Shown piece after piece: positions 1,289-32,090 of a stretch of DNA of 64,000 bases. The stretch's first letter is position 1; every line of letters starts with the position of its first letter. Source of the stretch: Eledone cirrhosa. Its lineage: Eukaryota. Under the pieces are notes generated by a model. The model did no database searches. It saw only the letters and a list, made by a program, of their open reading frames with translations, and had not been told where the DNA came from. A program made the translations under genes and the position numbers. The stretch is from contig CAXHJY010001394.1 of NCBI GenBank assembly GCA_964016885.1, forward strand, positions 136,959 through 200,958, written 5' to 3'.

Positions 1289-1684
1289 GCCCTGTGCGTC
1301 GATCGTGGGCCGGCCGGATGTTGACGGATCGATGTGTAATTAGAAGTACATGTGCGGACACTCATTGGCTGTGCGTGGTATGCATTTCAGCAAGATATCT
1401 CCGTAACATCAAGAGTTATGGCTGTGGAGGCACACCTAGTCAAACGTAAACAAGCTCTGGAGCGTATACGCTTCGCGATTTTGTTTACGTTTGACTAGGT
1501 GTGCCTCCACAGCCACAACTCTTGATGTTACGGAGATATCTTGCTGAAATGCATACCACGCACAGCCAATGAGTGTCCGCACATGTACTTCTAATTACAC
1601 ATCGATCCGTCAACATCCGGCCGGCCCACGATCGACGCACAGGGCCGGATGGCCCGTTTGCAGTGAATTTTCACCGGAATCGAT

Positions 1685-2018
1685 CTGTAATTACTGGTAC
1701 ATGTGCGGACACACATTTGCTGTGTGTGGTGTGATTTTCACGAAAAACTGCCCATGCTAAATGAGGAAGCTGAAGTCCGCCGGCGAATGGTGTGCTTCGA
1801 AGAAAACTAATTCGAAAATGACCGTTTGCAGGCGGAGTAACCTTTTCGATCGTGGGCCAGCCGCCCGTGGTGGGATACATCTGTAATTACTGGTACATGT
1901 GCGGACACACATTTGCTGTGTGTGGTGTGATTTTCGAGAAAGACTGCCCATGCTAAATGAGGAAGCTGAAGTCCGCCGGCGAATGGTGTGCTTCGAAGAA
2001 AACTAATTCGAAAATGAC
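1685..2018 (-). repeat. ~196-bp basic satellite monomer (tandem copies)
   Basis: ctgtaattactggtac at 1685 and 1881; cccatgctaaatga at 1751 and 1947. On the + strand attacagat occurs at 2631 and 2827. A 152-bp deletion derivative spans 2486-2637. Confidence 0.9.
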
Positions 2019-2557
2019 TATTTGCCGGCGGAATCACCTTTTCGGTCCTGGTCCGGCCGGATCTTGCCGGATCGATCGGAAATTTGTGGACCATGTTCGG
2101 AAGGCCATTGTGCATGTGTGGTGAAAAAAATTTGTGTCGAAATCTTCTCGGAAAATAACGGATCGCCGGCGGAGATTGCCATTTCGATCGTGGGCCGGCC
2201 GGATCTTGTCGGATCGATTCGGACATATGTGCATCGTGTTCGCAAGGCCCTTGTCTATGTGTGGTGTGATTTTCATAAAGAAATTCCGAAAAACCCAGTT
2301 TTAAATCTGATTTCGCCAAAGAATTTTGGCTATCAGATCGGGTTGAAAGGTATGGTTTCAGGTCGATCTGAAAGTCTAAAATGGAATTCACTCGGTTAGC
2401 TAACTTTTGATATATCGGAGATATCTTTCTGAAAATCACACCACACACTCCCAATGAGTGTCTGCACATGTACGAGTAATTACAGATGGATCCCACCACG
2501 GGCGGCCGGCCCACGATCGAAAAGGTTACTCCGAAGCACACCATTCGCCGGCGGAAT

Positions 2558-3544
2558 TCATTTAGCATGGGCAGTTTTTCTCGAAAATCACACCACACAC
2601 AGCCAATGAGTGTCCGCACATGTACCAGTAATTACAGATGGATCCCACCACGGGCGGCTGGCCCACGATCGAAAAGGTTACTCCGCCTGCAAACGGTCAT
2701 TTTCGAATTAGTTTTCTTCGAAGCACACCATTCGCCGGCGGACTTCAGCTTCCTCATTTAGCATGGGCAGTTTTTCTCGAAAATCACACCACACACAGCA
2801 AATGTGTGTCCGCACATGTACCAGTAATTACAGATCGATTCCGGTGAAAATTCACTGAAAACGGGCCATTCTGCCCTGTGCGTCGATCGTGGGCCGGCCG
2901 GATGTTGACGGATCGATGTGTAATTAGAAGTACATGTGCGGACACTCATTGGCTGTGCGTGGTATGCATTTCAGCAAGATATCTCCGTAACATCAAGAGT
3001 TATGGCTGTGGAGGCACACCTAGTCAAACGTAAACAAGCTCTGGAGCGTATACGCTTCGCGATTTTGTTTACGTTTGACTAGGTGTGCCTCCACAGCCAC
3101 AACTCTTGATGTTACGGAGATATCTTGCTGAAATGCATACCACGCACAGCCAATGAGTGTCCGCACATGTACTTCTAATTACACATCGATCCGTCAACAT
3201 CCGGCCGGCCCACGATCGACGCACAGGGCCGGATGGCCCGTTTTCAGTGAATTTTCACCGGAATCGATCTGTAATTACTGGTACATGTGCGGACACACAT
3301 TTGCTGTGTGTGGTGTGATTTTCACGAAAAACTGCCCATGCTAAATGAGGAAGCTGAAGTCCGCCGGCGAATGGTGTGCTTCGAAGAAAACTAATTCGAA
3401 AATGACCGTTTGCAGGCGGAGTAACCTTTTCGATCGTGGGCCAGCCGCCCGTGGTGGGATACATCTGTAATTACTGGTACATGTGCGGACACACATTTGC
3501 TGTGTGTGGTGTGATTTTCGAGAAAGACTGCCCATGCTAAATGA
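2558..3544. repeat. ~1-kb inverted repeat (about 480-bp arms, 27-bp loop); representative copy
   Basis: Left arm ends ...ctagtcaaacgtaaacaa (3037), loop gctctggagcgtatacgcttcgcgatt, right arm starts ttgtttacgtttgactag (3065). About 9 mismatches by eye. Mirror ORFs appear on opposite strands (2758..2949- versus 3153..3344+). Confidence 0.95.
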
Positions 3545-6500
3545 GGAAGCTGAAGTCCGCCGGCGAATGGTGTGCTTCGAAGAAAACTAATTCGAAAATG
3601 ACTATTTGCCGGCGGAATCACCTTTTCGGTCCTGGTCCGGCCGGATCTTGCCGGATCGATCGGAAATTTGTGGACCATGTTCGGAAGGCCATTGTGCATG
3701 TGTGGTGAAAAAAATTTGTGTCGAAATCTTCTCGGAAAATAACGGATCGCCGGCGGAGATTGCCATTTCGATCGTGGGCCGGCCGGATCTTGTCGGATCG
3801 ATTCGGACATATGTGCATCGTGTTCGCAAGGCCCTTGTCTATGTGTGGTGTGATTTTCATAAAGAAATTCCGAAAAACCCAGTTTTAAATCTGATTTCGC
3901 CAAAGAATTTTGGCTATCAGATCGGGTTGAAAGGTATGGTTTCAGGTCGATCTGAAAGTCTAAAATGGAATTCACTCGGTTAGCTAACTTTTGATATATC
4001 GGAGATATCTTTCTGAAAATCACACCACACACTCCCAATGAGTGTCTGCACATGTACCAGTAATTACAGATGGATCCCACCACGGGCGGCCGGCCCACGA
4101 TCGAAAAGGTTACTCCGAAGCACACCATTCGCCGGCGGAATTCATTTAGCATGGGCAGTTTTTCTCGAAAATCACACCACACACAGCCAATGAGTGTCCG
4201 CACATGTACCAGTAATTACAGATGGATCCCACCACGGGCGGCTGGCCCACGATCGAAAAGGTTACTCCGCCTGCAAACGGTCATTTTCGAATTAGTTTTC
4301 TTCGAAGCACACCATTCGCCGGCGGACTTCAGCTTCCTCATTTAGCATGGGCAGTTTTTCTCGAAAATCACACCACACACAGCAAATGTGTGTCCGCACA
4401 TGTACCAGTAATTACAGATCGATTCCGGTGAAAATTCACTGAAAACGGGCCATTCTGCCCTGTGCGTCGATCGTGGGCCGGCCGGATGTTGACGGATCGA
4501 TGTGTAATTAGAAGTACATGTGCGAACACTCATTGGCTGTGCGTGGTATGCATTTCAGCAAGATATCTCCGTAACATCAAGAGTTATGGCTGTGGAGGCA
4601 CACCTAGTCAAACGTAAACAAGCTCTGGAGCGTATACGCTTCGCGATTTTGTTTACGTTTGACTAGGTGTGCCTCCACAGCCACAACTCTTGATGTTACG
4701 GAGATATCTTGCTGAAATGCATACCACGCACAGCCAATGAGTGTCCGCACATGTACTTCTAATTACACATCGATCCGTCAACATCCGGCCGGCCCACGAT
4801 CGACGCACAGGGCCGGATGGCCCGTTTTCAGTGAATTTTCACCGGAATCGATCTGTAATTACTGGTACATGTGCGGACACACATTTGCTGTGTGTGGTGT
4901 GATTTTCACGAAAAACTGCCCATGCTAAATGAGGAAGCTGAAGTCCGCCGGCGAATGGTGTGCTTCGAAGAAAACTAATTCGAAAATGACCGTTTGCAGG
5001 CGGAGTAACCTTTTCGATCGTGGGCCAGCCGCCCGTGGTGGGATACATCTGTAATTACTGGTACATGTGCGGACACACATTTGCTGTGTGTGGTGTGATT
5101 TTCGAGAAAGACTGCCCATGCTAAATGAGGAAGCTGAAGTCCGCCGGCGAATGGTGTGCTTCGAAGAAAACTAATTCGAAAATGACTATTTGCCGGCGGA
5201 ATCACCTTTTCGGTCCTGGTCCGGCCGGATCTTGCCGGATCGATCGGAAATTTGTGGACCATGTTCGGAAGGCCATTGTGCATGTGTGGTGAAAAAAATT
5301 TGTGTCGAAATCTTCTCGGAAAATAACGGATCGCCGGCGGAGATTGCCATTTCGATCGTGGGCCGGCCGGATCTTGTCGGATCGATTCGGACATATGTGC
5401 ATCGTGTTCGCAAGGCCCTTGTCTATGTGTGGTGTGATTTTCATAAAGAAATTCCGAAAAACCCAGTTTTAAATCTGATTTCGCCAAAGAATTTTGGCTA
5501 TCAGATCGGGTTGAAAGGTATGGTTTCAGGTCGATCTGAAAGTCTAAAATGGAATTCACTCGGTTAGCTAACTTTTGATATATCGGAGATATCTTTCTGA
5601 AAATCACACCACACACTCCCAATGAGTGTCTGCACATGTACCAGTAATTACAGATGGATCCCACCACGGGCAGCCGGCCCACGATCGAAAAGGTTACTCC
5701 GAAGCACACCATTCGCCGGCGGAATTCATTTAGCATGGGCAGTTTTTCTCGAAAATCACACCACACACAGCCAATGAGTGTCCGCACATGTACCAGTAAT
5801 TACAGATGGATCCCACCACGGGCGGCTGGCCCACGATCGAAAAGGTTACTCCGCCTGCAAACGGTCATTTTCGAATTAGTTTTCTTCGAAGCACACCATT
5901 CGCCGGCGGACTTCAGCTTCCTCATTTAGCATGGGCAGTTTTTCTCGAAAATCACACCACACACAGCAAATGTGTGTCCGCACATGTACCAGTAATTACA
6001 GATCGATTCCGGTGAAAATTCACTGAAAACGGGCCATTCTGCCCTGTGCGTCGATCGTGGGCCGGCCGGATGTTGACGGATCGATGTGTAATTAGAAGTA
6101 CATGTGCGGACACTCATTGGCTGTGCGTGGTATGCATTTCAGCAAGATATCTCCGTAACATCAAGAGTTATGGCTGTGGAGGCACACCTAGTCAAACGTA
6201 AACAAGCTCTGGAGCGTATACGCTTCGCGATTTTGTTTACGTTTGACTAGGTGTGCCTCCACAGCCACAACTCTTGATGTTACGGAGATATCTTGCTGAA
6301 ATGCATACCACGCACAGCCAATGAGTGTCCGCACATGTACTTCTAATTACACATCGATCCGTCAACATCCGGCCGGCCCACGATCGACGCACAGGGCCGG
6401 ATGGCCCGTTTTCAGTGAATTTTCACCGGAATCGATCTGTAATTACTGGTACATGTGCGGACACACATTTGCTGTGTGTGGTGTGATTTTCACGAAAAAC

Positions 6501-7603
6501 TGCCCATGCTAAATGAGGAAGCTGAAGTCCGCCGGCGAATGGTGTGCTTCGAAGAAAACTAATTCGAAAATGACCGTTTGCAGGCGGAGTAACCTTTTCG
6601 ATCGTGGGCCAGCCGCCCGTGGTGGGATACATCTGTAATTACTGGTACATGTGCGGACACACATTTGCTGTGTGTGGTGTGATTTTCGAGAAAGACTGCC
6701 CATGCTAAATGAGGAAGCTGAAGTCCGCCGGCGAATGGTGTGCTTCGAAGAAAACTAATTCGAAAATGACTATTTGCCGGCGGAATCACCTTTTCGGTCC
6801 TGGTCCGGCCGGATCTTGCCGGATCGATCGGAAATTTGTGGACCATGTTCGGAAGGCCATTGTGCATGTGTGGTGAAAAAAATTTGTGTCGAAATCTTCT
6901 CGGAAAATAACGGATCGCCGGCGGAGATTGCCATTTCGATCGTGGGCCGGCCGGATCTTGTCGGATCGATTCGGACATATGTGCATCGTGTTCGCAAGGC
7001 CCTTGTCTATGTGTGGTGTGATTTTCATAAAGAAATTCCGAAAAACCCAGTTTTAAATCTGATTTCGCCAAAGAATTTTGGCTATCAGATCGGGTTGAAA
7101 GGTATGGTTTCAGGTCGATCTGAAAGTCTAAAATGGAATTCACTCGGTTAGCTAACTATTGATATATCGGAGATATCTTTCTGAAAATCACACCACACAC
7201 TCCCAATGAGTGTCTGCACATGTCCCAGTAATTACAGATGGATCCCACCACGGGCGGCCGGCCCACGATCGAAAAGGTTACTCCGAAGCACACCATTCGC
7301 CGGCGGAATTCATTTAGCATGGGCAGTTTTTCTCGAAAATCACACCACACACAGCCAATCAGTGTCCGCACATGTACCAGTAATTACAGATGGATCCCAC
7401 TACGGGCGGCTGGCCCACGATCGAAAAGGTTACTCCGCCTGCAAACGGTCATTTTCGAATTCGTTTTCTTCGAAGCACACCATTCGCCGGCGGACTTCAG
7501 CTGCCTCATTTAGCATGGGCAGCTTTTCTCGAAAATCACACCACACACAGCCAATGAGTTTAAAATACTCACCGTTTGATTTGGAAAAACTTAAAATGCT
7601 CAC

Positions 7604-7634
7604 ATATATATGTGTATGTATTTATCTATGCATG

Positions 7635-7680
<46 letters not shown>

Positions 7681-8176
7681 TGTATTTATCTATGTATTTA
7701 TCTATATGCATGGATATATATATATATATATATATTTATCTATGTATTTATCTATATGCATGGATATATATATATATATATATATATATGTATTTATCTA
7801 TGCATGTATGAATATATAAAATATATATATATATATATGTGTGTATGTATTTATCTATGCATGTATGAATATATAAAATATATATATATATATATATGTA
7901 TGTATTTATCTATGCATGTATATATATATAAATATATACATAAATATATATATATATATATGTATTTATCTATGCATGTGTGCATACATATATATATATA
8001 TATATGTATTTATCTATACATGTATGTATATATATATATATACATATATAAGTATTTATCTATACATGTATGTATATATATATATACATATATATGTATT
8101 TATCTATACATGTATGTATATATATATATATATATATATGTATATAAGTATTTATCTATACATGTATGTATATATA
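7604..8176. repeat. (TA)n-based minisatellite, unit ~gtatttatctat(g/a)catgt(at)n
   Basis: Directly visible; copies at 20601, 32014, 45011 and 59592. Confidence 0.95.
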
Positions 8177-8264
8177 AAATATTGTCATGTTTACAAAAAT
8201 ATTTTTCTAATATCGTGTTTAATATTTTATATTGTCGTCTGCTTCTCTTCTCACGTGGTTACTA

Positions 8265-8638
8265 ACTCTCTCACCCTCTCTCTCTTTCCCCTCTCATACA
8301 ACCCCTTCTTTCTCTTTCTTTCCCCTCTCACACAACCTCTTCTTTCTCTCTCTTTTTGCCAGTCCCTTCTCTCACTCTCTCTCCCTCTTCCTTTTTTATC
8401 TCTTTCTTTCTGTCTCTGTTTCCCTCCTATAGACATTCTCTCTCTCTCTTTCTGCTCTCACTCAGCCTTCTCTCTCTTTCCCCTCTCACACAGTCTTCTC
8501 TCTCTCTCTTTCCCCTCTCACACAGCATTCTCTCTCTCTCTCTCTCTCTTTCCCCTCTCACACAGCATTCTCTCTCTCTCTCTCTCTTTATTTCCCCTCT
8601 CACACAGCCTTCTCTCTCTATCTATCTATCTCTCTCTC
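8265..8638. repeat. CT-rich minisatellite, unit ~tttcccctctcacacagc(a/c)ttc(tc)n
   Basis: Polypyrimidine tract with a recurring cccctctcacaca core; copies at 21262, 32675, 45672 and 60253. Confidence 0.93.
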
Positions 8639-8923
8639 TGGAGATTTTTTAACACAAAGTCACACAAGGATTAGAAAAATGGCGATAATCACTTTGAAAG
8701 TAACAATTATGCAATAAATAGTTGTTATTGCCACGTCTCGTATCCTCCTTTGGCAATGTGTAAAATGTTAGCGAGATCGAGTGAACAATACACAAGTTAT
8801 AATACTTTACAGACGGGACTTATACAGTAGATGTAGCAAAATGCGTAGATTACGATTCTTGAGACGAGATTAAAATATACGATTATGGGATACTTTAAGA
8901 AGACGAGTAGATGTTTGAGTAGA

Positions 8924-9278
8924 TTTAGCTGCTTTTTCTAGCATTTTTAGTTATACTTTGAAGCAAATTTTTTTTGTTACTATTATATTAAAAGTTATCT
9001 GGTTACGTTATTTGACTGGTATTTCTAGCATTTTACAAGGACCACGTGTGTGTTTTATTTGAGGAAGATCTAGTTGTTATTTCTGATATTTTCTTCATCA
9101 AGTTAGTTGCTATTTCCTGCATCCTCTTGAAGACAAGGAATAATAATGAATTAGCTGCTGTTTCTAGTAGGTTCTATGGTAGTGGTGAGCGTGGGAGGGA
9201 GGTTTGACTGCTATTTTTAGCAGGTTCTAAGGCATTGAGGTTTATGTTTTACGAGAGATTTGGCTGTTATTTCTAACA
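8924..9278 (+). repeat. Cluster of seven degenerate 20-bp motifs (tttRgctgctatttctagca) with dissimilar spacers
   Basis: Motif starts at 8924, 9011, 9069, 9102, 9150, 9203 and 9259, with a solo copy at 10899. Present in every unit. Confidence 0.75.
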
Positions 9279-9619
9279 TGTTATAATGGAGAGAGAGAGA
9301 GAGAGTATAAGATATACAGAGAGAGGGAGTATAAGATATAGAGAGAGGGGAAACGGCCGATGTTTACGTTGAGAAAACCTAATAAAATGTTATAAATGGG
9401 TTTATAAAGAATAGAATGAGATAAACAAGACAAAGTTAGATAAAATAAATCAGCTGTAAGGATATTATACGATATATTTATAATATTTTAATATATTTTT
9501 CCTGGTCGTCTGCTGCCATTGATAGAGAGAGGAGTGGTGGGAGGTAGCCATAACAACCGTGGTAGCAGCACTGAGGTTTGTTTTTAAAGAAGTGAATACA
9601 AGAAAAACAAGCAACTAAG

Positions 9620-10460
9620 AATATTAATCTCTTAAACCCTTCAAGATGTGTATGACAAGAAAGAAGACGTTTTAGAGTCGTATGACATAGATGATAACTG
9701 GAAATTCTTACGTGACAACTTACTGCAGGCTACTGAAGAAACTTGTGGCTGGAGCAGAGCTCCGACCAGACAGAGAGTGACCTGGTGGTGGGACAACACG
9801 GTAGATAAGGCCATTAGAGACAAAAGACTAGCATGGAACACTTGAAAAAATGGTGGGAGTAGAGACCGATACACAGCTGCTAAGAGAGAAGCTAGACGTC
9901 AGATGTACTTAGCACGCACGGAGGCTGAGAGTAGGAGGTTTGCCAATGTTCTGTGATGGGAAGATCAGAGGCGTGCGGTGTTCCACATTGCAAGGCATGG
10001 TGTCAGTGTAAATCAGGATGTTGTTGGAGATAAGTGTATCCGGAATGATGCCAGTGTACTTGGTGTCACGAATGATCAAAAAAAGGAGGCCTGGAAATAT
10101 CATTATGAGAGGCTGATGAATTGTGGAGAATGAATGGGAGAGAGGGAAACTATCCCCAGTAGACCCAACAGAGGGACCAGCTATTGAGATTGGGGAATAT
10201 AGGGTACAAGAGGCAATTAAGGAAATGAAGAATGGCAAGGCTACTGGACTCTAGGGGATAGTTGCTCAGATGCTGAAGGCATCAGAAGTAGGCACTAAAC
10301 TGGTTACACACATCATCAATCAAGCTATATATGGTAGTGTCATACCCAAAGAATGGTGCAGCAGTATTCTCATAAATTGGTACAAAGGTAAAGGGGATGC
10401 TCTGGAGAGGAGCAATTATATGGGCACTTCAATATTTAATGATACAGGTGATAAAACAAC
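9620..10460 (+). pseudogene. Decayed RTE-clade LINE, endonuclease-RT linker and start of RT
   Basis: NWKFLRDNLLQATEETCGWS...TWWWDNTVDKAI, EAWKYHYERLMN, EGPAIEI...AIKEMKNGKA and IPKEWCSSILINWYKGKGDALERSNY, with stops and frameshifts. Confidence 0.88.
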
Positions 10461-10612
10461 AACTATAAGGTAAATAAGTCACCTTATGTTATTTACAAAC
10501 ATTAACGTCCACCTTAATATGAAATAATCACCATAAAAGAGGAAGCGAGGGCATCGGCTACCGGCACCCGGGCTGCTCTCTCATCCTGAGTGGGATCTTC
10601 CAGCGTTGATGC

Positions 10613-11281
10613 ATCACCACGTTGATGTAAAACTTGGTTTTTCACTTTGGGATAATACACGTATTTGCAACTTATTTATGTTTATTTACGTTGAGCGTAA
10701 TCGATTTGTTTCCATATCTCCACGCGTTTTATTTCATAGTCATAGTTATAAAATTAGAAAACTTTCTTTAAAAAAAACAAATTAACGCGGGTAACTACAA
10801 GATAACCTTGTTTTGTAATACTGGCAGACATTGAAGATTCTTTATGGATGGTTGATACTCAGCTGCCAGGAACACAGGATGTGGCAGAGGGTATAAGATT
10901 TGCCTGCTATTTCTAGCAACTTCAATGACCACATAATTGGTTTGTAATTTTGTTTTAAAGTGTAAGGGTTTACACAGCCATTTATGAATTTCTAAGAGAT
11001 ACGTTTACGATGAGATACACTTATTAAAAATACTTTCATTGCATAGTTCCGTTTGTAAAGGCTTTAATTTACTGTACTACTCGGGAACCTTTTAATAACA
11101 CACAGGATTAAGTCCATGTTTGTTCAACCAATTAATGGTATCTGCTGTAGTAGGGGTAACGATGGAAATATGGCGATGATTAACTCCACCCTGGGGTATA
11201 ATGTAGAATTCATATTTTTCAACTTGCCCATACGTGTATTATCCCAAAGTGAAAAACCAAGTTTTACATCAACGTGGTGAT
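10613..11281. mobile_element. MITE-like non-autonomous DNA transposon with 52-bp perfect terminal inverted repeats
   Basis: 10613-10664 (atcaccacgttgatgtaaaacttggtttttcactttgggataatacacgtat) is the exact reverse complement of 11230-11281. The interior is non-coding and AT-rich. Copies start at 23610, 35023, 48020 and 62601. Confidence 0.8.
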
Positions 11282-12509
11282 TTCAAAGTTTATTTATTTA
11301 CACATGGTGGTGGGGGGGGATACGGAAATAAACGAAGGTTGACGAATGACGTCACATTCTTCTACTTTCACTTCTGACAGCCAATTCCGTTGTAGTGCCA
11401 TATATAAACATGATGGTCACGGCTGGAACAACTTTAATTATAGGTCTGCTCAATCATACTAACATGGGATTTAAATTGAGCAAAGTTGGAGTTGTCTCCC
11501 TTGGTACTTTACTACGCTACGTTTGTTTATATATATCATCATCATCATCTTCAACATTATCATTTAACGTTCATTGTTATCACACCTGCATGGGTTATAC
11601 AGGTTGTCACGTTATGAGACATGTCAGGTGTGGAGACCAGGTCTCATATGGATGTGTATTTTGGTTTGGTTTCTAAGGCTGGATGCCCTTCTTAACACGA
11701 AACACGTTACAATGTGGACTGCACACTTTTGTATGACCACCTTACAGGATGAACTGGGTGTTTTTATTGTTGTAGCATCAACGAGGTGTGTGGGATATTT
11801 AGCAGGTGAGGGCAGGGCCTTATGAATAGGAAGGGGTGATGAGAAGATTGGTGAAGACTAGTGTGTTCTCTACATGTTTGTTTTATTTCATTTTCAGCAC
11901 ATGGGAGGGGGGGGGGGTCTTCTACATTACAGCATGACGCCAGAGATCTCGATCCTGTGACATTTCCATTGAGAGGTTTAATTGGGCAAGGCGAGCTTTT
12001 ATTATTTCATCCCAAGCTTTCCTAGGTCTTCCCCTTTCATAGTTAACATCGACTTTGACAACCCTGCACCTTGTTATACAGCTGTCACCTTCCATATACA
12101 TCACATGTCCAAACCACCACAATCTCCTCTCCTCTACACTGCATCTGACCTCTCTTATACCTAGTTTCTCTCTCAGTTTATTAATGCTTGTTGTTCATGC
12201 ACACTATTACACATCTATCAGATCCTGTAAACTTCATTTCTTTCCAGTCTTTATAGGTCCTCTGAATATATTGCCCTGGTCTCACTTCAATGTAACATTG
12301 CTGTTTGTACACAGACTTCATACAATCTGCCTTTCACTTTCAGGGGAAATCATTTTGTAGGCATCAGTAGTAGTAGCTCCCTAAACTGTTTCCATCCCAT
12401 TCTCACTCAGGCTACTGTACCTTCAGAACACCCACCTCCACTGTTAATTTGGTTAATTAAGTTAACAGAAATTATGAACCGGTTTCTACAGAGCCTTCTG
12501 GACATTTAA

Positions 12510-12730
12510 CCCTTTAGCATTTAAACCAGCCATACCTAGCCAGAATACTCTCACATCTTTCTGTTCAAACCAGCCATAACTGGCCACTCATACTGACGTT
12601 AAGGTATTGTTCTCAATATAAATAATATCAAAATCTCATAGATTCGATATTATATGAGATAATTATGTAAGATAAAGCCTTTACCACAAAAATACAATAG
12701 TATATATAGAGTAATAAAAATGCTAAAGGG
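12510..12730. mobile_element. piggyBac-like (TTAA-type) MITE nested in the RTE
   Basis: ttaa|ccctttagcattt ... aaatgctaaaggg|taaa: 13-bp TIRs starting CCC, with TTAA on the left and degenerate TAAA on the right. Copies start at 25507, 36920 and 49917. Confidence 0.75.
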
Positions 12731-13105
12731 TAAAAGTAGCTTATTATTTTGTGAGCTCTTGCTACTTATTGCTCTTGTGCATCAAGAACATACACAGCTT
12801 ACATTTTGTTGCTAATCTCACTGAGATCCAACTACATCTCTTGTTTATCCATAGTTTGGAATTTCTACCTACTCCTTTCCTTTAGAATGATCAAGGCCAT
12901 TTTCTTGTGGGGATCTAGGCCCTGTTTTCCTTTCTATTTTGCCAAGTTATCTTACATCACTTTCATTCTAGACCATGCTTCCAGGTTTGGAATTTCTCCT
13001 CTAATTTTACCACAGATTAAGTGACAAGGGTTCAATCATGTGCATACAGGAGTTCCCATGGACAGCCAGTAATATGTAATAGCCTGCAGGATGATAATAA
13101 ACAGA

Positions 13106-13155
13106 AGAGGGTTAATTACAGAGCCCTGATAGAGGGTTAATAACAGAGCCCTGAT
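13106..13155. repeat. 25-bp tandem duplication within the RTE RT motif
   Basis: agagggttaattacagagccctgat followed by agagggttaataacagagccctgat. Confidence 0.85.
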
Positions 13156-13843
13156 AGACTTGTTCACTCAACTCCTCACTATAGCCATCATTACTTTTAA
13201 CCTTACTGACTGCTCCTCCATACATGGCTTTTACTGCTCTCACAAGCCACTCATATACCCCTAGTTTTCTAAGTTATACACCAGATTATGGAAGGGGGAA
13301 GTCTCACAGAAGCTCTCTCTGGGTCAACAAATGCCAAGTAGAGGGGCTTATTTTAGCTAGGTACTACTCTTGCAGTTGCCACACAAGGAAGAGGACATCA
13401 GTGGTACTTTTACCTGGCACAAATCCAAACTTCATCTCATCTAGGTTAACTTGGTCCCTAATCAGCTGTGTTATAAATCTAACACCTTCATGAAGTGGTC
13501 CATCTAATATTTCTATAGTTTTCTAGCTCTAGTACATCTCCTTTGCCCTTGTAGCAGTTGATGATGATGATACTACACCATTTATTTGGTATGACACCAT
13601 TTTGTATTACATGCTGTACGATACCAGTGGTTAAGATGTGACCCACCACCCCAGATACTTTCAGTATCTCAGCAACTATCACCAATGGACAAGATACTTT
13701 CTCTGTCTTCATATCCTTAATTACCTTACTACACTACTGCTTACTTGTATGGCTGGACCCTCTGTTGGGCCCACTTTCCGTAGACTATCTTCCTCCCATG
13801 CATTCTCCTCATTCAGTAATCTTTCATAAAGGCATTTCCATGT

Positions 13844-14044
13844 TACAAAGGTTGGCTGAAAAGTTCATAGACTATCAATGATAGCATGATGCTAGAGCTG
13901 TGAAATCTTGCCTGCATTAATTTCAACTCTTCTTATTAATAACTGCATTGTTTCCTTCCAGGGACTATGTTGAAAAATAAACCTCATTTGGTCATTCCAT
14001 GAGTGTATCTTGGTCTGCCTATGAACTTTTCAGCTGACCCTATT
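13844..14044. mobile_element. Tc1/mariner-like MITE nested in the RTE
   Basis: tacaaaggttggctgaaaagttcatag ... ctatgaacttttcagctgaccctatt: imperfect ~25-bp TIRs with a left TA. It interrupts the RTE frame. Copies start at 26841, 38254 and 51251. Confidence 0.7.
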
Positions 14045-15060
14045 CAGCATCAGTGAGCCCAAATGCCCCATTATCATCCTGGACACACTTTACCCCAACA
14101 TCACAATTTGCCCTCACACACTGCCTCACAATCCTGAACATCTCATGTATTTCATCCTCACATCATAAAACCAACTGAAATTATATATTCTCTGCTTCCC
14201 TCCTTGCAAAGAATACTTCTTGCCTAGCTTCCTGTAGTGTACCCTCCAGCTGCCTCCATTCTGCCATTATTCCATGCCTGTCTCTTGGCCTTAACTGTCT
14301 CATCTACCCTAGTGTTTCACCACCAAGATACTCTCCTCTCTGAAGCCCTGCTCCAGCCACAGATCTAGTTTGACACCTTCAGCAAAGGTTCTTTAAGGAA
14401 CTCCCACTGTTCCCCTATATTGTATGTTTCTATTTGTTCTTCCTTACTGTTGTAAAGATCAAACAAAATATCTCTAAATTTGGAACTGGCTGAGGGGTCC
14501 TTTAACTTCCATATCCTTCTCCTCCAAGTTGCCCTCAGTCTTCAAGTTCATCTAAGTCTATGAAATCACTAACTACTGGGTTATGTTGGGAGGTGCATTC
14601 TTCCCCAGGGGGTGGGGATTGTGTGTTTACAAATGTCAATATCTCATCTTCTGGTGAGGATAAAAATCTGACTGGCATGCTCCTCTGACCAATAGGTGTT
14701 GAAGTGGTTGTCGGGTAAACGTTAAGACCCTCTGATATACATATATATATATATACTAGCAGTGGTACCCGGCGTTGCACGGGATAACGTATTTCGGAAC
14801 GCGGGCCGCCATCTTCCACTTCAGCCGGTCGCCCTAAAGTGTTGGCTATTCAGTCTACTTGAGGCCAGTTGGTGAGGGGGGGTAAAGCTTTCAGTGTGCT
14901 ACTACCCTCACGGTCAAATAGAAAGGGAGAGGAAGAAAAGTCAGCGTTAATATCGTGCTACACGTTTGAAAGGTTGGATGACCTTAGAGTTCACCAGGGT
15001 GGGGGGTTCTAAAAGTATCTATCTTGGTATTTTATCTTAGAAGTAATCATTACAGAGTGT

Positions 15061-15869
15061 ACTGGGTGTATTTTAGTGGGCAGTAATTCCATAAAGAACA
15101 CAGTATAATCTGTGGACACAAGCCTTGCAGTGTGATTACAGGCAGGTTAATGGGAAAGATAGATTATATATGTGACATGATGTACATGAGAAGTGAGGAC
15201 ACAGACCACACATGAAATAGATTCCTACAACTGTCAGGGAGGCTCCCTAGAATTACAGATGACATATTTCAATATCTCGGTGATCAAGTTAGCAGTGGAG
15301 GAAGAATCTCTAAAAGTGTAATACCCAGGATAAGGACAGGCTGGAAGAAGTTTAGAGTACTGTTCCATCTGTTGACAACAAAGGGCTTCTCTCTCAGAAT
15401 GGAGGCTAGACTGCTTGATACTTATGTGTGGTCTGCAATCTACACCCCAGCCATGCCCCTTCCACTACCACTCCTTAGCTATTTCTCTCCATTAATACTC
15501 CTCACATTTCAAGCAGTTTTCTCATCTCAATGAAAGAAAAATATTGGGCTCAAGAGAAGTCTTCAGTTATGCCATGGTGTGGCAACCTCCCTAGGGTTGG
15601 GCAGAGTGTAAATGAGAGTGAAATTAGGTATGAGAGGGATCATATGCAGTATACAAGAGAGTAGATTACATTGGTATGGTCATGTGATGGGTATAAAGGA
15701 TGACAGCTGTATAAAAATGTGCTGGGCAATCAAAGTTGATGGAAGTTATGAAGGCGGAAGACCCAGGATGACCTGGGATGAGGTGATAAAAGATGACTTT
15801 GCACAATTGCAACTCTCAAAGACAATGACACAGGATAGAGATCTTGAGATGTATGCAGCAATACAGAAG
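15061..15869 (+). pseudogene. Decayed RTE LINE C-terminus (copy)
   Basis: Copy of 480-1288 at +14581. Confidence 0.85.
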
Positions 15870-18800
15870 GCCCTGTGCGTCGATCGTGGGCCGGCCGGAT
15901 GTTGACGGATCGATGTGTAATTAGAAGTACATGTGCGGACACTCATTGGCTGTGCGTGGTATGCATTTCAGCAAGATATCTCCGTAACATCAAGAGTTAT
16001 GGCTGTGGAGGCACACCTAGTCAAACGTAAACAAGCTCTGGAGCGTATACGCTTCGCGATTTTGTTTACGTTTGACTAGGTGTGCCTCCACAGCCACAAC
16101 TCTTGATGTTACGGAGATATCTTGCTGAAATGCATACCACGCACAGCCAATGAGTGTCCGCACATGTACTTCTAATTACACATCGATCCGTCAACATCCG
16201 GCCGGCCCACGATCGACGCACAGGGCCGGATGGCCCGTTTGCAGTGAATTTTCACCGGAATCGATCTGTAATTACTGGTACATGTGCGGACACACATTTG
16301 CTGTGTGTGGTGTGATTTTCACGAAAAACTGCCCATGCTAAATGAGGAAGCTGAAGTCCGCCGGCGAATGGTGTGCTTCGAAGAAAACTAATTCGAAAAT
16401 GACCGTTTGCAGGCGGAGTAACCTTTTCGATCGTGGGCCAGCCGCCCGTGGTGGGATACATCTGTAATTACTGGTACATGTGCGGACACACATTTGCTGT
16501 GTGTGGTGTGATTTTCGAGAAAGACTGCCCATGCTAAATGAGGAAGCTGAAGTCCGCCGGCGAATGGTGTGCTTCGAAGAAAACTAATTCGAAAATGACT
16601 ATTTGCCGGCGGAATCACCTTTTCGGTCCTGGTCCGGCCGGATCTTGCCGGATCGATCGGAAATTTGTGGACCATGTTCGGAAGGCCATTGTGCATGTGT
16701 GGTGAAAAAAATTTGTGTCGAAATCTTCTCGGAAAATAACGGATCGCCGGCGGAGATTGCCATTTCGATCGTGGGCCGGCCGGATCTTGTCGGATCGATT
16801 CGGACATATGTGCATCGTGTTCGCAAGGCCCTTGTCTATGTGTGGTGTGATTTTCATAAAGAAATTCCGAAAAACCCAGTTTTAAATCTGATTTCGCCAA
16901 AGAATTTTGGCTATCAGATCGGGTTGAAAGGTATGGTTTCAGGTCGATCTGAAAGTCTAAAATGGAATTCACTCGGTTAGCTAACTTTTGATATATCGGA
17001 GATATCTTTCTGAAAATCACACCACACACTCCCAATGAGTGTCTGCACATGTACCAGTAATTACAGATGGATCCCACCACGGGCGGCCGGCCCACGATCG
17101 AAAAGGTTACTCCGAAGCACACCATTCGCCGGCGGAATTCATTTAGCATGGGCAGTTTTTCTCGAAAATCACACCACACACAGCCAATGAGTGTCCGCAC
17201 ATGTACCAGTAATTACAGATGGATCCCACCACGGGCGGCTGGCCCACGATCGAAAAGGTTACTCCGCCTGCAAACGGTCATTTTCGAATTAGTTTTCTTC
17301 GAAGCACACCATTCGCCGGCGGACTTCAGCTTCCTCATTTAGCATGGGCAGTTTTTCTCGAAAATCACACCACACACAGCAAATGTGTGTCCGCACATGT
17401 ACCAGTAATTACAGATCGATTCCGGTGAAAATTCACTGAAAACGGGCCATTCTGCCCTGTGCGTCGATCGTGGGCCGGCCGGATGTTGACGGATCGATGT
17501 GTAATTAGAAGTACATGTGCGGACACTCATTGGCTGTGCGTGGTATGCATTTCAGCAAGATATCTCCGTAACATCAAGAGTTATGGCTGTGGAGGCACAC
17601 CTAGTCAAACGTAAACAAGCTCTGGAGCGTATACGCTTCGCGATTTTGTTTACGTTTGACTAGGTGTGCCTCCACAGCCACAACTCTTGATGTTACGGAG
17701 ATATCTTGCTGAAATGCATACCACGCACAGCCAATGAGTGTCCGCACATGTACTTCTAATTACACATCGATCCGTCAACATCCGGCCGGCCCACGATCGA
17801 CGCACAGGGCCGGATGGCCCGTTTTCAGTGAATTTTCACCGGAATCGATCTGTAATTACTGGTACATGTGCGGACACACATTTGCTGTGTGTGGTGTGAT
17901 TTTCACGAAAAACTGCCCATGCTAAATGAGGAAGCTGAAGTCCGCCGGCGAATGGTGTGCTTCGAAGAAAACTAATTCGAAAATGACCGTTTGCAGGCGG
18001 AGTAACCTTTTCGATCGTGGGCCAGCCGCCCGTGGTGGGATACATCTGTAATTACTGGTACATGTGCGGACACACATTTGCTGTGTGTGGTGTGATTTTC
18101 GAGAAAGACTGCCCATGCTAAATGAGGAAGCTGAAGTCCGCCGGCGAATGGTGTGCTTCGAAGAAAACTAATTCGAAAATGACTATTTGCCGGCGGAATC
18201 ACCTTTTCGGTCCTGGTCCGGCCGGATCTTGCCGGATCGATCGGAAATTTGTGGACCATGTTCGGAAGGCCATTGTGCATGTGTGGTGAAAAAAATTTGT
18301 GTCGAAATCTTCTCGGAAAATAACGGATCGCCGGCGGAGATTGCCATTTCGATCGTGGGCCGGCCGGATCTTGTCGGATCGATTCGGACATATGTGCATC
18401 GTGTTCGCAAGGCCCTTGTCTATGTGTGGTGTGATTTTCATAAAGAAATTCCGAAAAACCCAGTTTTAAATCTGATTTCGCCAAAGAATTTTGGCTATCA
18501 GATCGGGTTGAAAGGTATGGTTTCAGGTCGATCTGAAAGTCTAAAATGGAATTCACTCGGTTAGCTAACTTTTGATATATCGGAGATATCTTTCTGAAAA
18601 TCACACCACACACTCCCAATGAGTGTCTGCACATGTACCAGTAATTACAGATGGATCCCACCACGGGCAGCCGGCCCACGATCGAAAAGGTTACTCCGAA
18701 GCACACCATTCGCCGGCGGAATTCATTTAGCATGGGCAGTTTTTCTCGAAAATCACACCACACACAGCCAATGAGTGTCCGCACATGTACCAGTAATTAC

Positions 18801-20556
18801 AGATGGATCCCACCACGGGCGGCTGGCCCACGATCGAAAAGGTTACTCCGCCTGCAAACGGTCATTTTCGAATTAGTTTTCTTCGAAGCACACCATTCGC
18901 CGGCGGACTTCAGCTTCCTCATTTAGCATGGGCAGTTTTTCTCGAAAATCACACCACACACAGCAAATGTGTGTCCGCACATGTACCAGTAATTACAGAT
19001 CGATTCCGGTGAAAATTCACTGAAAACGGGCCATTCTGCCCTGTGCGTCGATCGTGGGCCGGCCGGATGTTGACGGATCGATGTGTAATTAGAAGTACAT
19101 GTGCGGACACTCATTGGCTGTGCGTGGTATGCATTTCAGCAAGATATCTCCGTAACATCAAGAGTTATGGCTGTGGAGGCACACCTAGTCAAACGTAAAC
19201 AAGCTCTGGAGCGTATACGCTTCGCGATTTTGTTTACGTTTGACTAGGTGTGCCTCCACAGCCACAACTCTTGATGTTACGGAGATATCTTGCTGAAATG
19301 CATACCACGCACAGCCAATGAGTGTCCGCACATGTACTTCTAATTACACATCGATCCGTCAACATCCGGCCGGCCCACGATCGACGCACAGGGCCGGATG
19401 GCCCGTTTTCAGTGAATTTTCACCGGAATCGATCTGTAATTACTGGTACATGTGCGGACACACATTTGCTGTGTGTGGTGTGATTTTCACGAAAAACTGC
19501 CCATGCTAAATGAGGAAGCTGAAGTCCGCCGGCGAATGGTGTGCTTCGAAGAAAACTAATTCGAAAATGACCGTTTGCAGGCGGAGTAACCTTTTCGATC
19601 GTGGGCCAGCCGCCCGTGGTGGGATACATCTGTAATTACTGGTACATGTGCGGACACACATTTGCTGTGTGTGGTGTGATTTTCGAGAAAGACTGCCCAT
19701 GCTAAATGAGGAAGCTGAAGTCCGCCGGCGAATGGTGTGCTTCGAAGAAAACTAATTCGAAAATGACTATTTGCCGGCGGAATCACCTTTTCGGTCCTGG
19801 TCCGGCCGGATCTTGCCGGATCGATCGGAAATTTGTGGACCATGTTCGGAAGGCCATTGTGCATGTGTGGTGAAAAAAATTTGTGTCGAAATCTTCTCGG
19901 AAAATAACGGATCGCCGGCGGAGATTGCCATTTCGATCGTGGGCCGGCCGGATCTTGTCGGATCGATTCGGACATATGTGCATCGTGTTCGCAAGGCCCT
20001 TGTCTATGTGTGGTGTGATTTTCATAAAGAAATTCCGAAAAACCCAGTTTTAAATCTGATTTCGCCAAAGAATTTTGGCTATCAGATCGGGTTGAAAGGT
20101 ATGGTTTCAGGTCGATCTGAAAGTCTAAAATGGAATTCACTCGGTTAGCTAACTATTGATATATCGGAGATATCTTTCTGAAAATCACACCACACACTCC
20201 CAATGAGTGTCTGCACATGTCCCAGTAATTACAGATGGATCCCACCACGGGCGGCCGGCCCACGATCGAAAAGGTTACTCCGAAGCACACCATTCGCCGG
20301 CGGAATTCATTTAGCATGGGCAGTTTTTCTCGAAAATCACACCACACACAGCCAATCAGTGTCCGCACATGTACCAGTAATTACAGATGGATCCCACTAC
20401 GGGCGGCTGGCCCACGATCGAAAAGGTTACTCCGCCTGCAAACGGTCATTTTCGAATTCGTTTTCTTCGAAGCACACCATTCGCCGGCGGACTTCAGCTG
20501 CCTCATTTAGCATGGGCAGCTTTTCTCGAAAATCACACCACACACAGCCAATGAGT
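15870..20556. repeat. Palindromic satellite array 2: 3 x 1584-bp subunits
   Basis: Same subunit and same boundaries as array 1; centres 16048, 17632, 19216. Confidence 0.97.
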
Positions 20557-20631
20557 TTAAAATACTCACCGTTTGATTTGGAAAAACTTAAAATGCTCAC
20601 ATATATATGTGTATGTATTTATCTATGCATG

Positions 20632-20677
<46 letters not shown>

Positions 20678-22616
20678 TGTATTTATCTATGTATTTATCT
20701 ATATGCATGGATATATATATATATATATATATTTATCTATGTATTTATCTATATGCATGGATATATATATATATATATATATATATGTATTTATCTATGC
20801 ATGTATGAATATATAAAATATATATATATATATATGTGTGTATGTATTTATCTATGCATGTATGAATATATAAAATATATATATATATATATATGTATGT
20901 ATTTATCTATGCATGTATATATATATAAATATATACATAAATATATATATATATATATGTATTTATCTATGCATGTGTGCATACATATATATATATATAT
21001 ATGTATTTATCTATACATGTATGTATATATATATATATACATATATAAGTATTTATCTATACATGTATGTATATATATATATACATATATATGTATTTAT
21101 CTATACATGTATGTATATATATATATATATATATATGTATATAAGTATTTATCTATACATGTATGTATATATAAAATATTGTCATGTTTACAAAAATATT
21201 TTTCTAATATCGTGTTTAATATTTTATATTGTCGTCTGCTTCTCTTCTCACGTGGTTACTAACTCTCTCACCCTCTCTCTCTTTCCCCTCTCATACAACC
21301 CCTTCTTTCTCTTTCTTTCCCCTCTCACACAACCTCTTCTTTCTCTCTCTTTTTGCCAGTCCCTTCTCTCACTCTCTCTCCCTCTTCCTTTTTTATCTCT
21401 TTCTTTCTGTCTCTGTTTCCCTCCTATAGACATTCTCTCTCTCTCTTTCTGCTCTCACTCAGCCTTCTCTCTCTTTCCCCTCTCACACAGTCTTCTCTCT
21501 CTCTCTTTCCCCTCTCACACAGCATTCTCTCTCTCTCTCTCTCTCTTTCCCCTCTCACACAGCATTCTCTCTCTCTCTCTCTCTTTATTTCCCCTCTCAC
21601 ACAGCCTTCTCTCTCTATCTATCTATCTCTCTCTCTGGAGATTTTTTAACACAAAGTCACACAAGGATTAGAAAAATGGCGATAATCACTTTGAAAGTAA
21701 CAATTATGCAATAAATAGTTGTTATTGCCACGTCTCGTATCCTCCTTTGGCAATGTGTAAAATGTTAGCGAGATCGAGTGAACAATACACAAGTTATAAT
21801 ACTTTACAGACGGGACTTATACAGTAGATGTAGCAAAATGCGTAGATTACGATTCTTGAGACGAGATTAAAATATACGATTATGGGATACTTTAAGAAGA
21901 CGAGTAGATGTTTGAGTAGATTTAGCTGCTTTTTCTAGCATTTTTAGTTATACTTTGAAGCAAATTTTTTTTGTTACTATTATATTAAAAGTTATCTGGT
22001 TACGTTATTTGACTGGTATTTCTAGCATTTTACAAGGACCACGTGTGTGTTTTATTTGAGGAAGATCTAGTTGTTATTTCTGATATTTTCTTCATCAAGT
22101 TAGTTGCTATTTCCTGCATCCTCTTGAAGACAAGGAATAATAATGAATTAGCTGCTGTTTCTAGTAGGTTCTATGGTAGTGGTGAGCGTGGGAGGGAGGT
22201 TTGACTGCTATTTTTAGCAGGTTCTAAGGCATTGAGGTTTATGTTTTACGAGAGATTTGGCTGTTATTTCTAACATGTTATAATGGAGAGAGAGAGAGAG
22301 AGTATAAGATATACAGAGAGAGGGAGTATAAGATATAGAGAGAGGGGAAACGGCCGATGTTTACGTTGAGAAAACCTAATAAAATGTTATAAATGGGTTT
22401 ATAAAGAATAGAATGAGATAAACAAGACAAAGTTAGATAAAATAAATCAGCTGTAAGGATATTATACGATATATTTATAATATTTTAATATATTTTTCCT
22501 GGTCGTCTGCTGCCATTGATAGAGAGAGGAGTGGTGGGAGGTAGCCATAACAACCGTGGTAGCAGCACTGAGGTTTGTTTTTAAAGAAGTGAATACAAGA
22601 AAAACAAGCAACTAAG

Positions 22617-23457
22617 AATATTAATCTCTTAAACCCTTCAAGATGTGTATGACAAGAAAGAAGACGTTTTAGAGTCGTATGACATAGATGATAACTGGAA
22701 ATTCTTACGTGACAACTTACTGCAGGCTACTGAAGAAACTTGTGGCTGGAGCAGAGCTCCGACCAGACAGAGAGTGACCTGGTGGTGGGACAACACGGTA
22801 GATAAGGCCATTAGAGACAAAAGACTAGCATGGAACACTTGAAAAAATGGTGGGAGTAGAGACCGATACACAGCTGCTAAGAGAGAAGCTAGACGTCAGA
22901 TGTACTTAGCACGCACGGAGGCTGAGAGTAGGAGGTTTGCCAATGTTCTGTGATGGGAAGATCAGAGGCGTGCGGTGTTCCACATTGCAAGGCATGGTGT
23001 CAGTGTAAATCAGGATGTTGTTGGAGATAAGTGTATCCGGAATGATGCCAGTGTACTTGGTGTCACGAATGATCAAAAAAAGGAGGCCTGGAAATATCAT
23101 TATGAGAGGCTGATGAATTGTGGAGAATGAATGGGAGAGAGGGAAACTATCCCCAGTAGACCCAACAGAGGGACCAGCTATTGAGATTGGGGAATATAGG
23201 GTACAAGAGGCAATTAAGGAAATGAAGAATGGCAAGGCTACTGGACTCTAGGGGATAGTTGCTCAGATGCTGAAGGCATCAGAAGTAGGCACTAAACTGG
23301 TTACACACATCATCAATCAAGCTATATATGGTAGTGTCATACCCAAAGAATGGTGCAGCAGTATTCTCATAAATTGGTACAAAGGTAAAGGGGATGCTCT
23401 GGAGAGGAGCAATTATATGGGCACTTCAATATTTAATGATACAGGTGATAAAACAAC
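22617..23457 (+). pseudogene. Decayed RTE LINE mid fragment (copy)
   Basis: Copy of 9620-10460 at +12997. Confidence 0.88.
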
Positions 23458-27500: not shown

Positions 27501-27732
27501 AACTTCCATATCCTTCTCCTCCAAGTTGCCCTCAGTCTTCAAGTTCATCTAAGTCTATGAAATCACTAACTACTGGGTTATGTTGGGAGGTGCATTCTTC
27601 CCCAGGGGGTGGGGATTGTGTGTTTACAAATGTCAATATCTCATCTTCTGGTGAGGATAAAAATCTGACTGGCATGCTCCTCTGACCAATAGGTGTTGAA
27701 GTGGTTGTCGGGTAAACGTTAAGACCCTCTGA
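24527..27732 (-). pseudogene. Long decayed RTE LINE (copy)
   Basis: Copy of 11530-14735 at +12997. Confidence 0.88.
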
Positions 27733-31800: not shown

Positions 31801-31969
31801 TGGATCCCACTACGGGCGGCTGGCCCACGATCGAAAAGGTTACTCCGCCTGCAAACGGTCATTTTCGAATTCGTTTTCTTCGAAGCACACCATTCGCCGG
31901 CGGACTTCAGCTGCCTCATTTAGCATGGGCAGCTTTTCTCGAAAATCACACCACACACAGCCAATGAGT
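28867..31969. repeat. Palindromic satellite array 3: 2 x 1584-bp subunits
   Basis: Same subunit and boundaries; centres 29045, 30629. Confidence 0.97.

Positions 31970-32044: not shown

Positions 32045-32090
<46 letters not shown>

What the first reader, a model, noticed from the sequence alone, without database searches (positions are those of the whole stretch)
1289..7559. Satellite subunit has two opposing palindrome axes, giving an alternating head-to-head/tail-to-tail concatemer
Seen: besides the young axis A (1467, 3051, ...), each 1584-bp subunit has a second, degenerate axis C at about 2352. tgtgtggtgtgattttca (2258-2275) pairs with tgaaaatcacaccacaca (2430-2447), and the inner pair tcagatcg (2333) / cgatctga (2364) plus tgaaa/tttca centre on the same point. 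The array therefore reads as a 700-885-bp segment repeated in alternating orientation (A-to-C 885 bp, C-to-A 699 bp). Established: such concatemers arise from replication of hairpin-ended linear DNA (parvovirus rolling-hairpin replication, poxvirus concatemer junctions) and from fold-back or breakage-fusion-bridge events. Ordinary satellites are mostly head-to-tail. Inference: this may be an undescribed fold-back satellite, or a relic of a small non-coding hairpin-ended replicon that was later amplified as a 1584-bp tandem.
Basis: partly seen in the sequence, partly recalled or inferred. Interest (0 to 1): 0.8.

Follow-up and report, generated by a model that had tools for sequence, protein, structure and literature searches.

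The report
Nested-palindrome satellite inside 13-kb macrosatellite
The 1,584-base repeat has two mirror axes, but it is a non-coding satellite unit built from about nine related 140-200-base monomers that flip direction four times, likely derived from foldback-type transposon ends, and it sits inside a larger 11-15 kb tandem repeat of an animal genome; satellites with long inverted halves are already known from beetles, and nothing found points to a hairpin-ended replicon.

Summary
Axis C (2352) is real. The quoted motifs are at the stated places. With the monomer cores masked, a 25-bp hairpin still centres on 2352 (p 0.004-0.01 with the centre fixed; 0.04 with any centre).

The anatomy is richer than reported. 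The 1584-bp subunit is nine related monomers with four orientation switches: A and C are both convergent, and there are two divergent junctions, B and B'. It divides into a 357-bp near-perfect palindrome (1289-1645) and a 1217-bp foldback-like block (1651-2867).

Two to four subunits plus an 8310-bp spacer of retroelement-like debris form a macrosatellite that fills the window. In the run that holds it at high depth, subunit/spacer contig depth is 2.4-3.0, close to the window's 3.2. This leaves little room for free or pure concatemers. No replication gene, viral match or flipped loop was found (16 of 16 loops identical). Hits in other organisms look like sequencing carry-over.

Closest known: the Tribolium brevicornis and T. 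madens satellites with long inverted subunits, and the foldback element Tetris. Verdict: a new variant of a known kind; the replicon idea is unlikely.

The parts
1289..7558 (.). Array of 4 copies of the 1584-bp subunit (last copy truncated inside monomer M7)
   Evidence: starts 1289, 2873, 4457, 6041; first three copies differ from the second at 0-2 sites, the last at 9
1289..1645 (.). E1: 357-bp palindrome of two facing 'a' monomers (arms 164/165 identical); centre = axis A (1467)
   Evidence: predicted DNA hairpin -211.9 kcal/mol for 1299-1635
1454..1480 (.). 27-nt asymmetric loop at axis A; same orientation in all 16 copies
1642..1655 (.). Junction B: divergent switch; GGGCC, 4 nt, GGCCC; 2 of the 9 mismatches of the 480-bp A arms fall within 3 nt here
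1651..2867 (.). E2: 1217-bp foldback-like block, arms of tandem monomers (M1-M4 on +, M5-M7 on -), begins GG and ends CC, with AT on both sides
1651..2031 (+). Monomers M1 and M2 (98% and 96% identical to M7 and M6)
   Evidence: 183/186, 146/152
2032..2352 (+). Diverged monomers M3 and M4 (sisters in the core tree, 100/99)
2324..2380 (.). Inner hairpin at axis C (centre 2352), 19 of 25 pairs, 7-nt loop
2184..2520 (.). C module: facing monomers M4/M5, 337 bp head to head, the same span as the A module (1299-1635); 193/337 identical to it ungapped
   Evidence: the inner 91 bp of A and C show no similarity
2353..2867 (-). Monomers M5, M6 (44-bp shorter) and M7
2863..2876 (.). Junction B', mirror of B; the array's left end (1288/1289) falls at this point of the subunit
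2558..3544 (.). Long palindrome about axis A at 3051: 480-bp arms with 9 mismatches
   Evidence: 386 of 400 pairs match within radius 400
7559..15869 (.). 8310-bp spacer of the macrosatellite: microsatellites, broken LINE-like frames, a small TIR element; no RNA gene
   Evidence: four complete copies identical
15870..59546 (.). Four more arrays of 3, 2, 3 and 4 subunits (starts 15870, 28867, 40280, 53277), each followed by the same spacer

Best explanation
The 1584-bp unit is a non-coding complex satellite repeat made of two related palindromic blocks, likely the remains of a short and a long non-autonomous foldback-type transposon lying side by side, whose arms are likely kept identical by gene conversion across axis A and which likely spread by unequal crossing-over inside a larger 11-15 kb tandem repeat. 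Shown: nine related monomers; four orientation switches; blocks E1 (357 bp, centre A) and E2 (1217 bp, centre C); 2-4 subunits per macro-unit; an identical 8310-bp spacer. Inferred: (1) E1 and E2 came from one monomer family that also has diverged dispersed copies; (2) their ends are at B/B', so A and C are element centres, not replicon ends; (3) the pair was joined to a LINE-like 3' end at a 4-base microhomology; (4) subunit number changes by unequal exchange, and the whole unit was amplified recently to a few hundred copies.
For: The array's left end falls at junction B'. Both blocks carry GGCC-type ends that face each other across 4-5 nt, and arm symmetry breaks at 2 of 3 bases there. E2 starts with GG and has AT on both sides, the two terminal features given for ISL2EU (PMC4482050, passages). 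Arms made of tandem monomers in unequal number (4 versus 3) match the Tetris anatomy (PMC4079207, sections 10 and 17). Run X1 holds 82-90% identical monomer relatives on contigs of depth ~10 and 125-400, so a wider family exists. Conversion: the terminal M7, which has no mirror partner, keeps at 2 linked sites the letters of a/M5/M6, while internal M7 carries those of its partner M1; the partnerless first M1 differs from M7 at 1 site where internal M1 matches it (4 of 5 first copies). Subunit/spacer depth is 2.4-3.0 in X1 against 16/5 = 3.2 in the window.
Against: No target-site duplication flanks E1, and the AT on both sides of E2 also follows automatically from the mirror about A. The A|AT|T target is matched on one side only. 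No transposase and no dispersed full-length E1 or E2 copy was shown (no genome held). The right end of the array is mid-monomer. The other 7 private variants of the terminal copy are not explained by conversion and fit ordinary edge divergence. The centres of A and C share no detectable similarity. The read-laying tool warns that contig depth is not a copy number.
Confidence: 0.55

Rival explanations
1. No transposon: an ordinary head-to-tail satellite underwent successive inversions (template switch or fold-back repair) at C, B and most recently A, and the resulting block was fixed as a complex higher-order repeat, as in Tribolium.
For: Identity falls with distance from A (164/165, 183/186, 146/152), as expected for one recent inverted duplication. 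Loose ends in X1 join A-arm-like sequence to the middle of a monomer (before 1969/1972; behind 1428), so A may be a fold-back inside a monomer. A 33-base piece ending at 1291 continues into other sequence in X1, X5 and X10, so the left junction may be plain microhomology joining. Conserved inversion sites inside satellite arrays are known (PMC13081366).
Against: It does not explain why the array begins exactly at B', why M1 and M7 carry a head unlike that of other monomers, or why arm mismatches cluster at B.
Confidence: 0.33
2. Relic of a small non-coding hairpin-ended replicon whose head-to-head/tail-to-tail concatemer integrated and was amplified.
For: The halves do alternate in orientation. 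The A and C modules have the same 337-bp span and related arms, as identical ends of a linear replicon would. The subunit is CpG-rich (o/e 1.16) against a depleted spacer (0.34). An asymmetric loop in a palindrome is what a copied hairpin leaves (PMC8956199, passages).
Against: No replication or resolvase frame. No match in viral contigs (one 25-nt pattern), phages or plasmids. 16 of 16 A loops are in one orientation. The two halves differ by about 186 bases and are only 63-80% alike near C, so this is not a concatemer of one molecule. Depth tracks the chromosomal spacer.
Confidence: 0.04
3. Derivative of Polinton/Maverick terminal repeats, or of another virus-like mobile element of the same genome.
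For: An earlier unchecked note describes gene-poor foldback dependants of Polintons in another animal genome (e1-7883813). The CpG richness would fit.
Against: No AG-type terminus or 6-bp target duplication (recalled Polinton features) is seen at either array end; no Polinton gene is in the macro-unit.
Confidence: 0.05
4. Assembly or library artefact (fold-back chimeras).
For: Long palindromes can be made by library preparation (general knowledge), and the spacer copies are identical.
Against: Run X1 holds the A centre as one contig with 0 differences at depth 12,902 and the C region at about 15,000; X3 and X5 hold the same A-centre contig. Copies carry position-specific variants. X1 may be the source sample, so it is not fully independent.
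Confidence: 0.02

Closest known systems
Tribolium brevicornis major satellite (Mravinac et al. 2005; seen only as cited in PMC13081366 and PMC5737470, passages)
   Same: Monomer over 1 kb (1061 bp) with ~470-bp inverted segments, so the array alternates in orientation; here 480-bp arms at 98%.
   Different: Here the arms are themselves built from shorter monomers with a further inversion, and the unit occurs in runs of 2-4 inside a macrosatellite.
Tribolium madens TmSat2 (PMC13081366, passages)
   Same: Complex higher-order unit of diverged subunits (seven, from a ~110-bp ancestor) in opposite orientations, ~300-bp inverted repeats, dyads at several levels, short arrays of a few repeats.
   Different: TmSat2 is interspersed with a major satellite in putative (peri)centromeres; here the spacer is retroelement-like debris, there are two convergent axes per unit, and the chromosomal position is unknown.
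Tetris foldback transposon and its MITE-like relative DAIBAM, Drosophila virilis (PMC4079207, abstract and sections 10 and 17)
   Same: Long TIRs holding a variable number of ~220-bp tandem repeats; a shorter deletion relative; source of satellite arrays.
   Different: Tetris has 8-10-bp target duplications and dispersed complete copies; neither is shown here, and here the whole palindromic block is the tandem unit.
Tandem transposon dimers that expand into satellites (McGurk and Barbash 2018, PMC5932611, passages)
   Same: Adjacent TIR elements separated by a few bases and amplified as an array.
   Different: The junction bases at B and B' are not a repeated target duplication.
Poxvirus/parvovirus concatemer junctions (PMC8956199, passages; parvovirus details recalled)
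   Same: Palindrome with an asymmetric centre; alternating orientation.
   Different: No genes, no flip/flop pair seen, halves unequal and diverged, G+C-rich rather than A+T-rich junction, embedded in chromosomal repeat debris.

Membership tests
Complex higher-order satellite with inverted subunits | Tandem unit of high copy-to-copy identity | tested here: met
   16 copies, 0-9 differences in 1519 bases
Complex higher-order satellite with inverted subunits | Unit built from diverged related subunits in both orientations | tested here: met
   nine monomers, pairwise 49-99%, four switches
Complex higher-order satellite with inverted subunits | Non-coding | tested here: met
   0 of 20 subunit frames of 50 aa or more hit Pfam; no Rfam match in the subunit array at E up to 1 for the first array
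Complex higher-order satellite with inverted subunits | Heterochromatic or centromeric location | not testable with these tools
   no genome held
Foldback-type TIR transposon (Tetris-like) | Long TIRs with internal tandem repeats | tested here: met
   E2 arms M1-M2 versus M7-M6 at 96-98%
Foldback-type TIR transposon (Tetris-like) | 8-10-bp target-site duplication | tested here: not met
   flanks of E1 and E2 inspected
Foldback-type TIR transposon (Tetris-like) | Dispersed complete copies and empty sites | tested here: inconclusive
   X1 shows diverged monomer pieces on low-depth contigs, but no complete element could be read
PHIS/ISL2EU non-autonomous element | TIR begins GG; 2-bp AT duplication in A|AT|T | tested here: inconclusive
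   E2 begins GG with AT on both sides; the flanking T is present, the flanking A is not; the symmetry about A could produce this alone
PHIS/ISL2EU non-autonomous element | Autonomous partner with matching TIR | not testable with these tools
   no genome held
Hairpin-ended replicon concatemer | Rep/HUH, pPolB or resolvase gene linked | tested here: not met
   0 of 65 frames reach a Pfam cut-off; 2 weak DUF matches; the (TA)n/(TC)n part 7559-8639 was not scanned
Hairpin-ended replicon concatemer | Flip and flop loop isomers | tested here: inconclusive
   16 of 16 window copies have one orientation; contigs cannot phase the loop against the arm variant 36 bases away
Hairpin-ended replicon concatemer | Copies in excess of, or apart from, the chromosomal locus | tested here: not met
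   depth ratio 2.4-3.0 versus 3.2 expected; a minor free fraction is not excluded
Hairpin-ended replicon concatemer | Free hairpin-ended DNA | not testable with these tools
   needs a bench assay

The most novel reading that the evidence does not exclude
The subunit is the fossil concatemer of a gene-free, hairpin-ended linear element with two related ends (A and C, both 337-bp facing-monomer modules) that depended on a helper virus or transposon, integrated into retroelement debris and was amplified as a megabase macrosatellite.
Probability: 0.04. Interest if true: 0.8.

Novelty: new variant of a known kind. Interest (0 to 1): 0.3.

Why it matters
Long dyads inside satellite monomers are called 'not so common' in a 2026 paper, whose most prominent case has ~470-bp arms (PMC13081366). 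This unit equals that, with 480-bp arms at 98%, in what is probably another animal phylum. It adds a nested layout (monomer hairpins, four switches, a variable-number subunit, a macrosatellite). Edge copies without a mirror partner act as a built-in control for arm-to-arm conversion in a satellite. If E1 and E2 prove to be transposons, it is a case of whole palindromic elements becoming the satellite unit. It also shows how an abundant satellite appears in many unrelated sequencing runs and mimics horizontal transfer. No new replicon or function is shown.

Tried and rejected
Own-genome search: no genome held, so dispersed copies, half-unit arrays and a partner transposase could not be searched directly.

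Horizontal transfer or deep conservation: considered after 20 of 24 listed runs (17 studies) held the subunit's words. Rejected for the 4 other-organism holders laid (X2, X3, X5, X10). They hold it at contig depth 2-41 with 0-1 differences over the long contigs, and the 3 tested for the spacer (X3, X5, X10) hold that too at depth 2.6-5.9, about 0.05-0.1% of X1. This fits index hopping as described in PMC12692304 section 8.2. Raw Hi-C reads of organism I gave 0 reads from about 1 in 100 of the run (the tool calls this no test). No RNA holder was listed, which is no evidence on expression.

RNA genes: none of 27 Rfam matches reaches its gathering score (bases 1-17000); no tRNA.

Metagenome scan: none of 116 loci matches beyond 26 bases.

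LINE identity of the spacer frames: three protein searches found nothing, PDB nothing. The Atlas gave only a lead (nearest named cluster RVT_1, 35% of members, score 0.89). The label 'RTE-like LINE' is therefore recalled. The representatives search was sent with a frame antisense to the LINE-like frame and was still queued; it was not collected.

Homology of the A and C centres: not detected. C as a simple fold-back of M4: M4 groups with M3, not M5, although the distal parts of M4 and M5 are more alike than shuffles (p=0.004).

Literature: searches listed no paper whose title or abstract start describes this repeat; the library lacks most subscription journals.
Full report
Context. The whole window is one tandem macrosatellite. 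Self-BLAST gives plus-strand repeats of up to 27.5 kb at over 99.9% with offsets of 11,413, 12,997 and 14,581 bases. Each unit is an 8310-bp spacer plus 2-4 copies of a 1584-bp subunit. The five arrays hold 4, 3, 2, 3 and 4 copies (16 in all), and the four complete spacers are identical. The spacer has (TA)n and (TC)n microsatellites and broken reading frames that I recognise from recall as RTE-like LINE pieces of the kind common in octopus genomes. Neither the LINE label nor the organism was confirmed by a call (negative; a weak RVT_1 lead). No Rfam family reaches its threshold in bases 1-17000, there is no tRNA, and 0 of 65 frames of 50 aa or more reach a Pfam cut-off.

The observation. The quoted motifs are at the stated coordinates. 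The outer 18-mer pair is a core motif of every monomer, so it only shows that two monomers face each other. The inner hairpin (2324-2348 with 2356-2380, 19 of 25 pairs) lies outside the monomer cores. Against dinucleotide shuffles of 2277-2429 it gives p=0.042 at any centre (2 of 47 spacer windows score as high). With the centre held within 1-5 bases of the outer pair's centre, p=0.0035-0.010. The two halves read from A align at 95-100% for about 530 bases, then have about 186 bases of gap and 63-80% identity near C.

Anatomy. The subunit is nine related monomers of 142-196 bases: A, a(-), B, M1-M4(+), C, M5-M7(-), B', a(+), A. There are four orientation switches. A and C are both convergent; B and B' are divergent. 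About A the arms run 480 bp with 9 mismatches around a 27-nt loop. The A module (1299-1635) and the C module (2184-2520) both span 337 bp head to head and are 193/337 identical ungapped. Their inner 91 bases are unrelated, so the equal span may be partly chance. Sequence kinship follows the A mirror (M1-M7 183/186, M2-M6 146/152), not the C mirror (M4-M5 86/156). In a core tree M4 groups with M3 at 100/99 (8 rows, 82 columns, a small data set).

Where the ends lie. Every array starts at junction B'. At B two GGCC-type motifs face each other across 4 nt, and 2 of the 9 arm mismatches fall within 3 nt there. This divides the subunit into E1 (1289-1645, a 357-bp palindrome) and E2 (1651-2867, arms of tandem monomers). 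E2 begins with GG and has AT on both sides, features reported for ISL2EU elements (PMC4482050, passages). The AT pair also follows from the mirror about A, and the A|AT|T context is met on one side only, so this is a lead. E1 has no target duplication. Each array ends mid-monomer at the right.

How the arms stay alike. The last copy of each array has 9 private variants; its M7 has no mirror partner. At two linked sites it carries the letters of a, M5 and M6, while internal M7 carries those of its partner M1. The partnerless M1 of the first copy differs from M7 at one site where internal M1 matches (4 of 5 arrays). These two tracts suggest conversion across A. The other 7 variants fit ordinary edge divergence.

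Evidence from public runs. No genome is held. 20 of 24 listed runs, from 17 studies, hold words of the subunit. I laid 6 runs on two stretches. In X1, exact contigs have depth 5,005-5,395 on the spacer, 14,764-15,000 near C and 12,902 at the A centre, a ratio of 2.4-3.0 against 3.2 in the window. So the subunit lives almost only inside this macro-unit, with little room for pure or free concatemers. The tool warns that contig depth is not a copy number, and X1 may be the source sample. Diverged contigs at depth 8-13 look single-copy. If so, the unit has a few hundred copies, some megabases (rough inference). X1 also holds 82-90% identical monomer relatives and loose ends that join A-arm-like sequence to mid-monomer, so a wider family exists and A may have arisen inside a monomer. 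X2, X3, X5 and X10, labelled as other organisms, hold the sequence almost unchanged at depth 2-41. X3, X5 and X10 hold the spacer too, at 0.05-0.1% of X1.

Replicon test. There is no replication gene, no match in viral contigs (one 25-nt pattern), plasmids or phages, and no metagenome match beyond 26 bases in 116 loci. All 16 A loops have one orientation. In its favour remain the alternating geometry, the related A and C modules and the lack of CpG depletion (o/e 1.16 against 0.34 in the spacer). I put it at 0.04.

Comparison. Satellites with long inverted subunits are known: T. brevicornis (1061 bp, ~470-bp arms) and T. madens TmSat2 (704 bp, ~300-bp arms, seven related subunits) (PMC13081366, passages); complex higher-order repeats with inverted monomers are a named class (PMC5737470, passages). 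Tetris shows foldback TIRs with ~220-bp tandem repeats feeding satellites (PMC4079207, abstract and two sections). Tandem transposon dimers can expand into arrays (PMC5932611, passages). PMC12628747 and PMC8101967 were read as passages and add only general support. PMC8956199 was read as passages for poxvirus junctions. The unit works like a complex inverted higher-order satellite and meets the tests for that class. It resembles a foldback element but fails the 8-10-bp target-duplication test, so it is not filed as one. Searches listed no description of this repeat. No supplements were read.

Verdict. Real feature; new variant of a known kind; interest 0.3. Most likely a two-block foldback-derived satellite unit (0.55), next a satellite with successive internal inversions (0.33), a Polinton-type derivative (0.05), a hairpin replicon relic (0.04) or an artefact (0.02).

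Noticed in passing
window 1-64000: The macrosatellite itself: an 8310-bp spacer identical in four complete copies plus a variable-number subunit, with no gene found to explain its amplification; depth about 5,000 in run X1 against about 10 for apparently single-copy contigs.
   Followed up: partly
window 10615-11279: 665-bp MITE-like element with ~61-bp inverted ends at 95%, beginning CAC and ending GTG, with AT on both sides; it interrupts a LINE-like fragment. A CACTA-type assignment is recalled, not tested.
   Followed up: partly
window 174-210 (and 14755-14791): A motif after a (TA)n run that resembles the start of Helitron/Helentron-type non-autonomous elements (recalled).
   Followed up: no
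window 1259-1291: A 33-base piece at the left junction also occurs with a different continuation in runs X1, X5 and X10; that continuation is not in bases 1-15869. It may be an abundant sister repeat or the pre-junction state.
   Followed up: partly
window 1972-2032: Full-length monomers carry their own hairpin (26-bp arms, 77%; predicted -19.7 kcal/mol), a third level of dyad symmetry.
   Followed up: partly
window 1289-2872 versus 7559-15869: CpG observed/expected is 1.16 in the subunit and 0.34 in the spacer, so the two parts had different mutational or methylation histories.
   Followed up: no
window 9744-10407 versus 13527-14361; 11944-12178 versus 15610-15844: Old LINE-like fragments in opposite orientation within the spacer, 65-76% identical.
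   Followed up: no
window 1810-2631 (-): A 274-codon stop-free frame (253 from the first Met) crosses axis C; no Pfam match; probably chance in G+C-rich repeat.
   Followed up: partly
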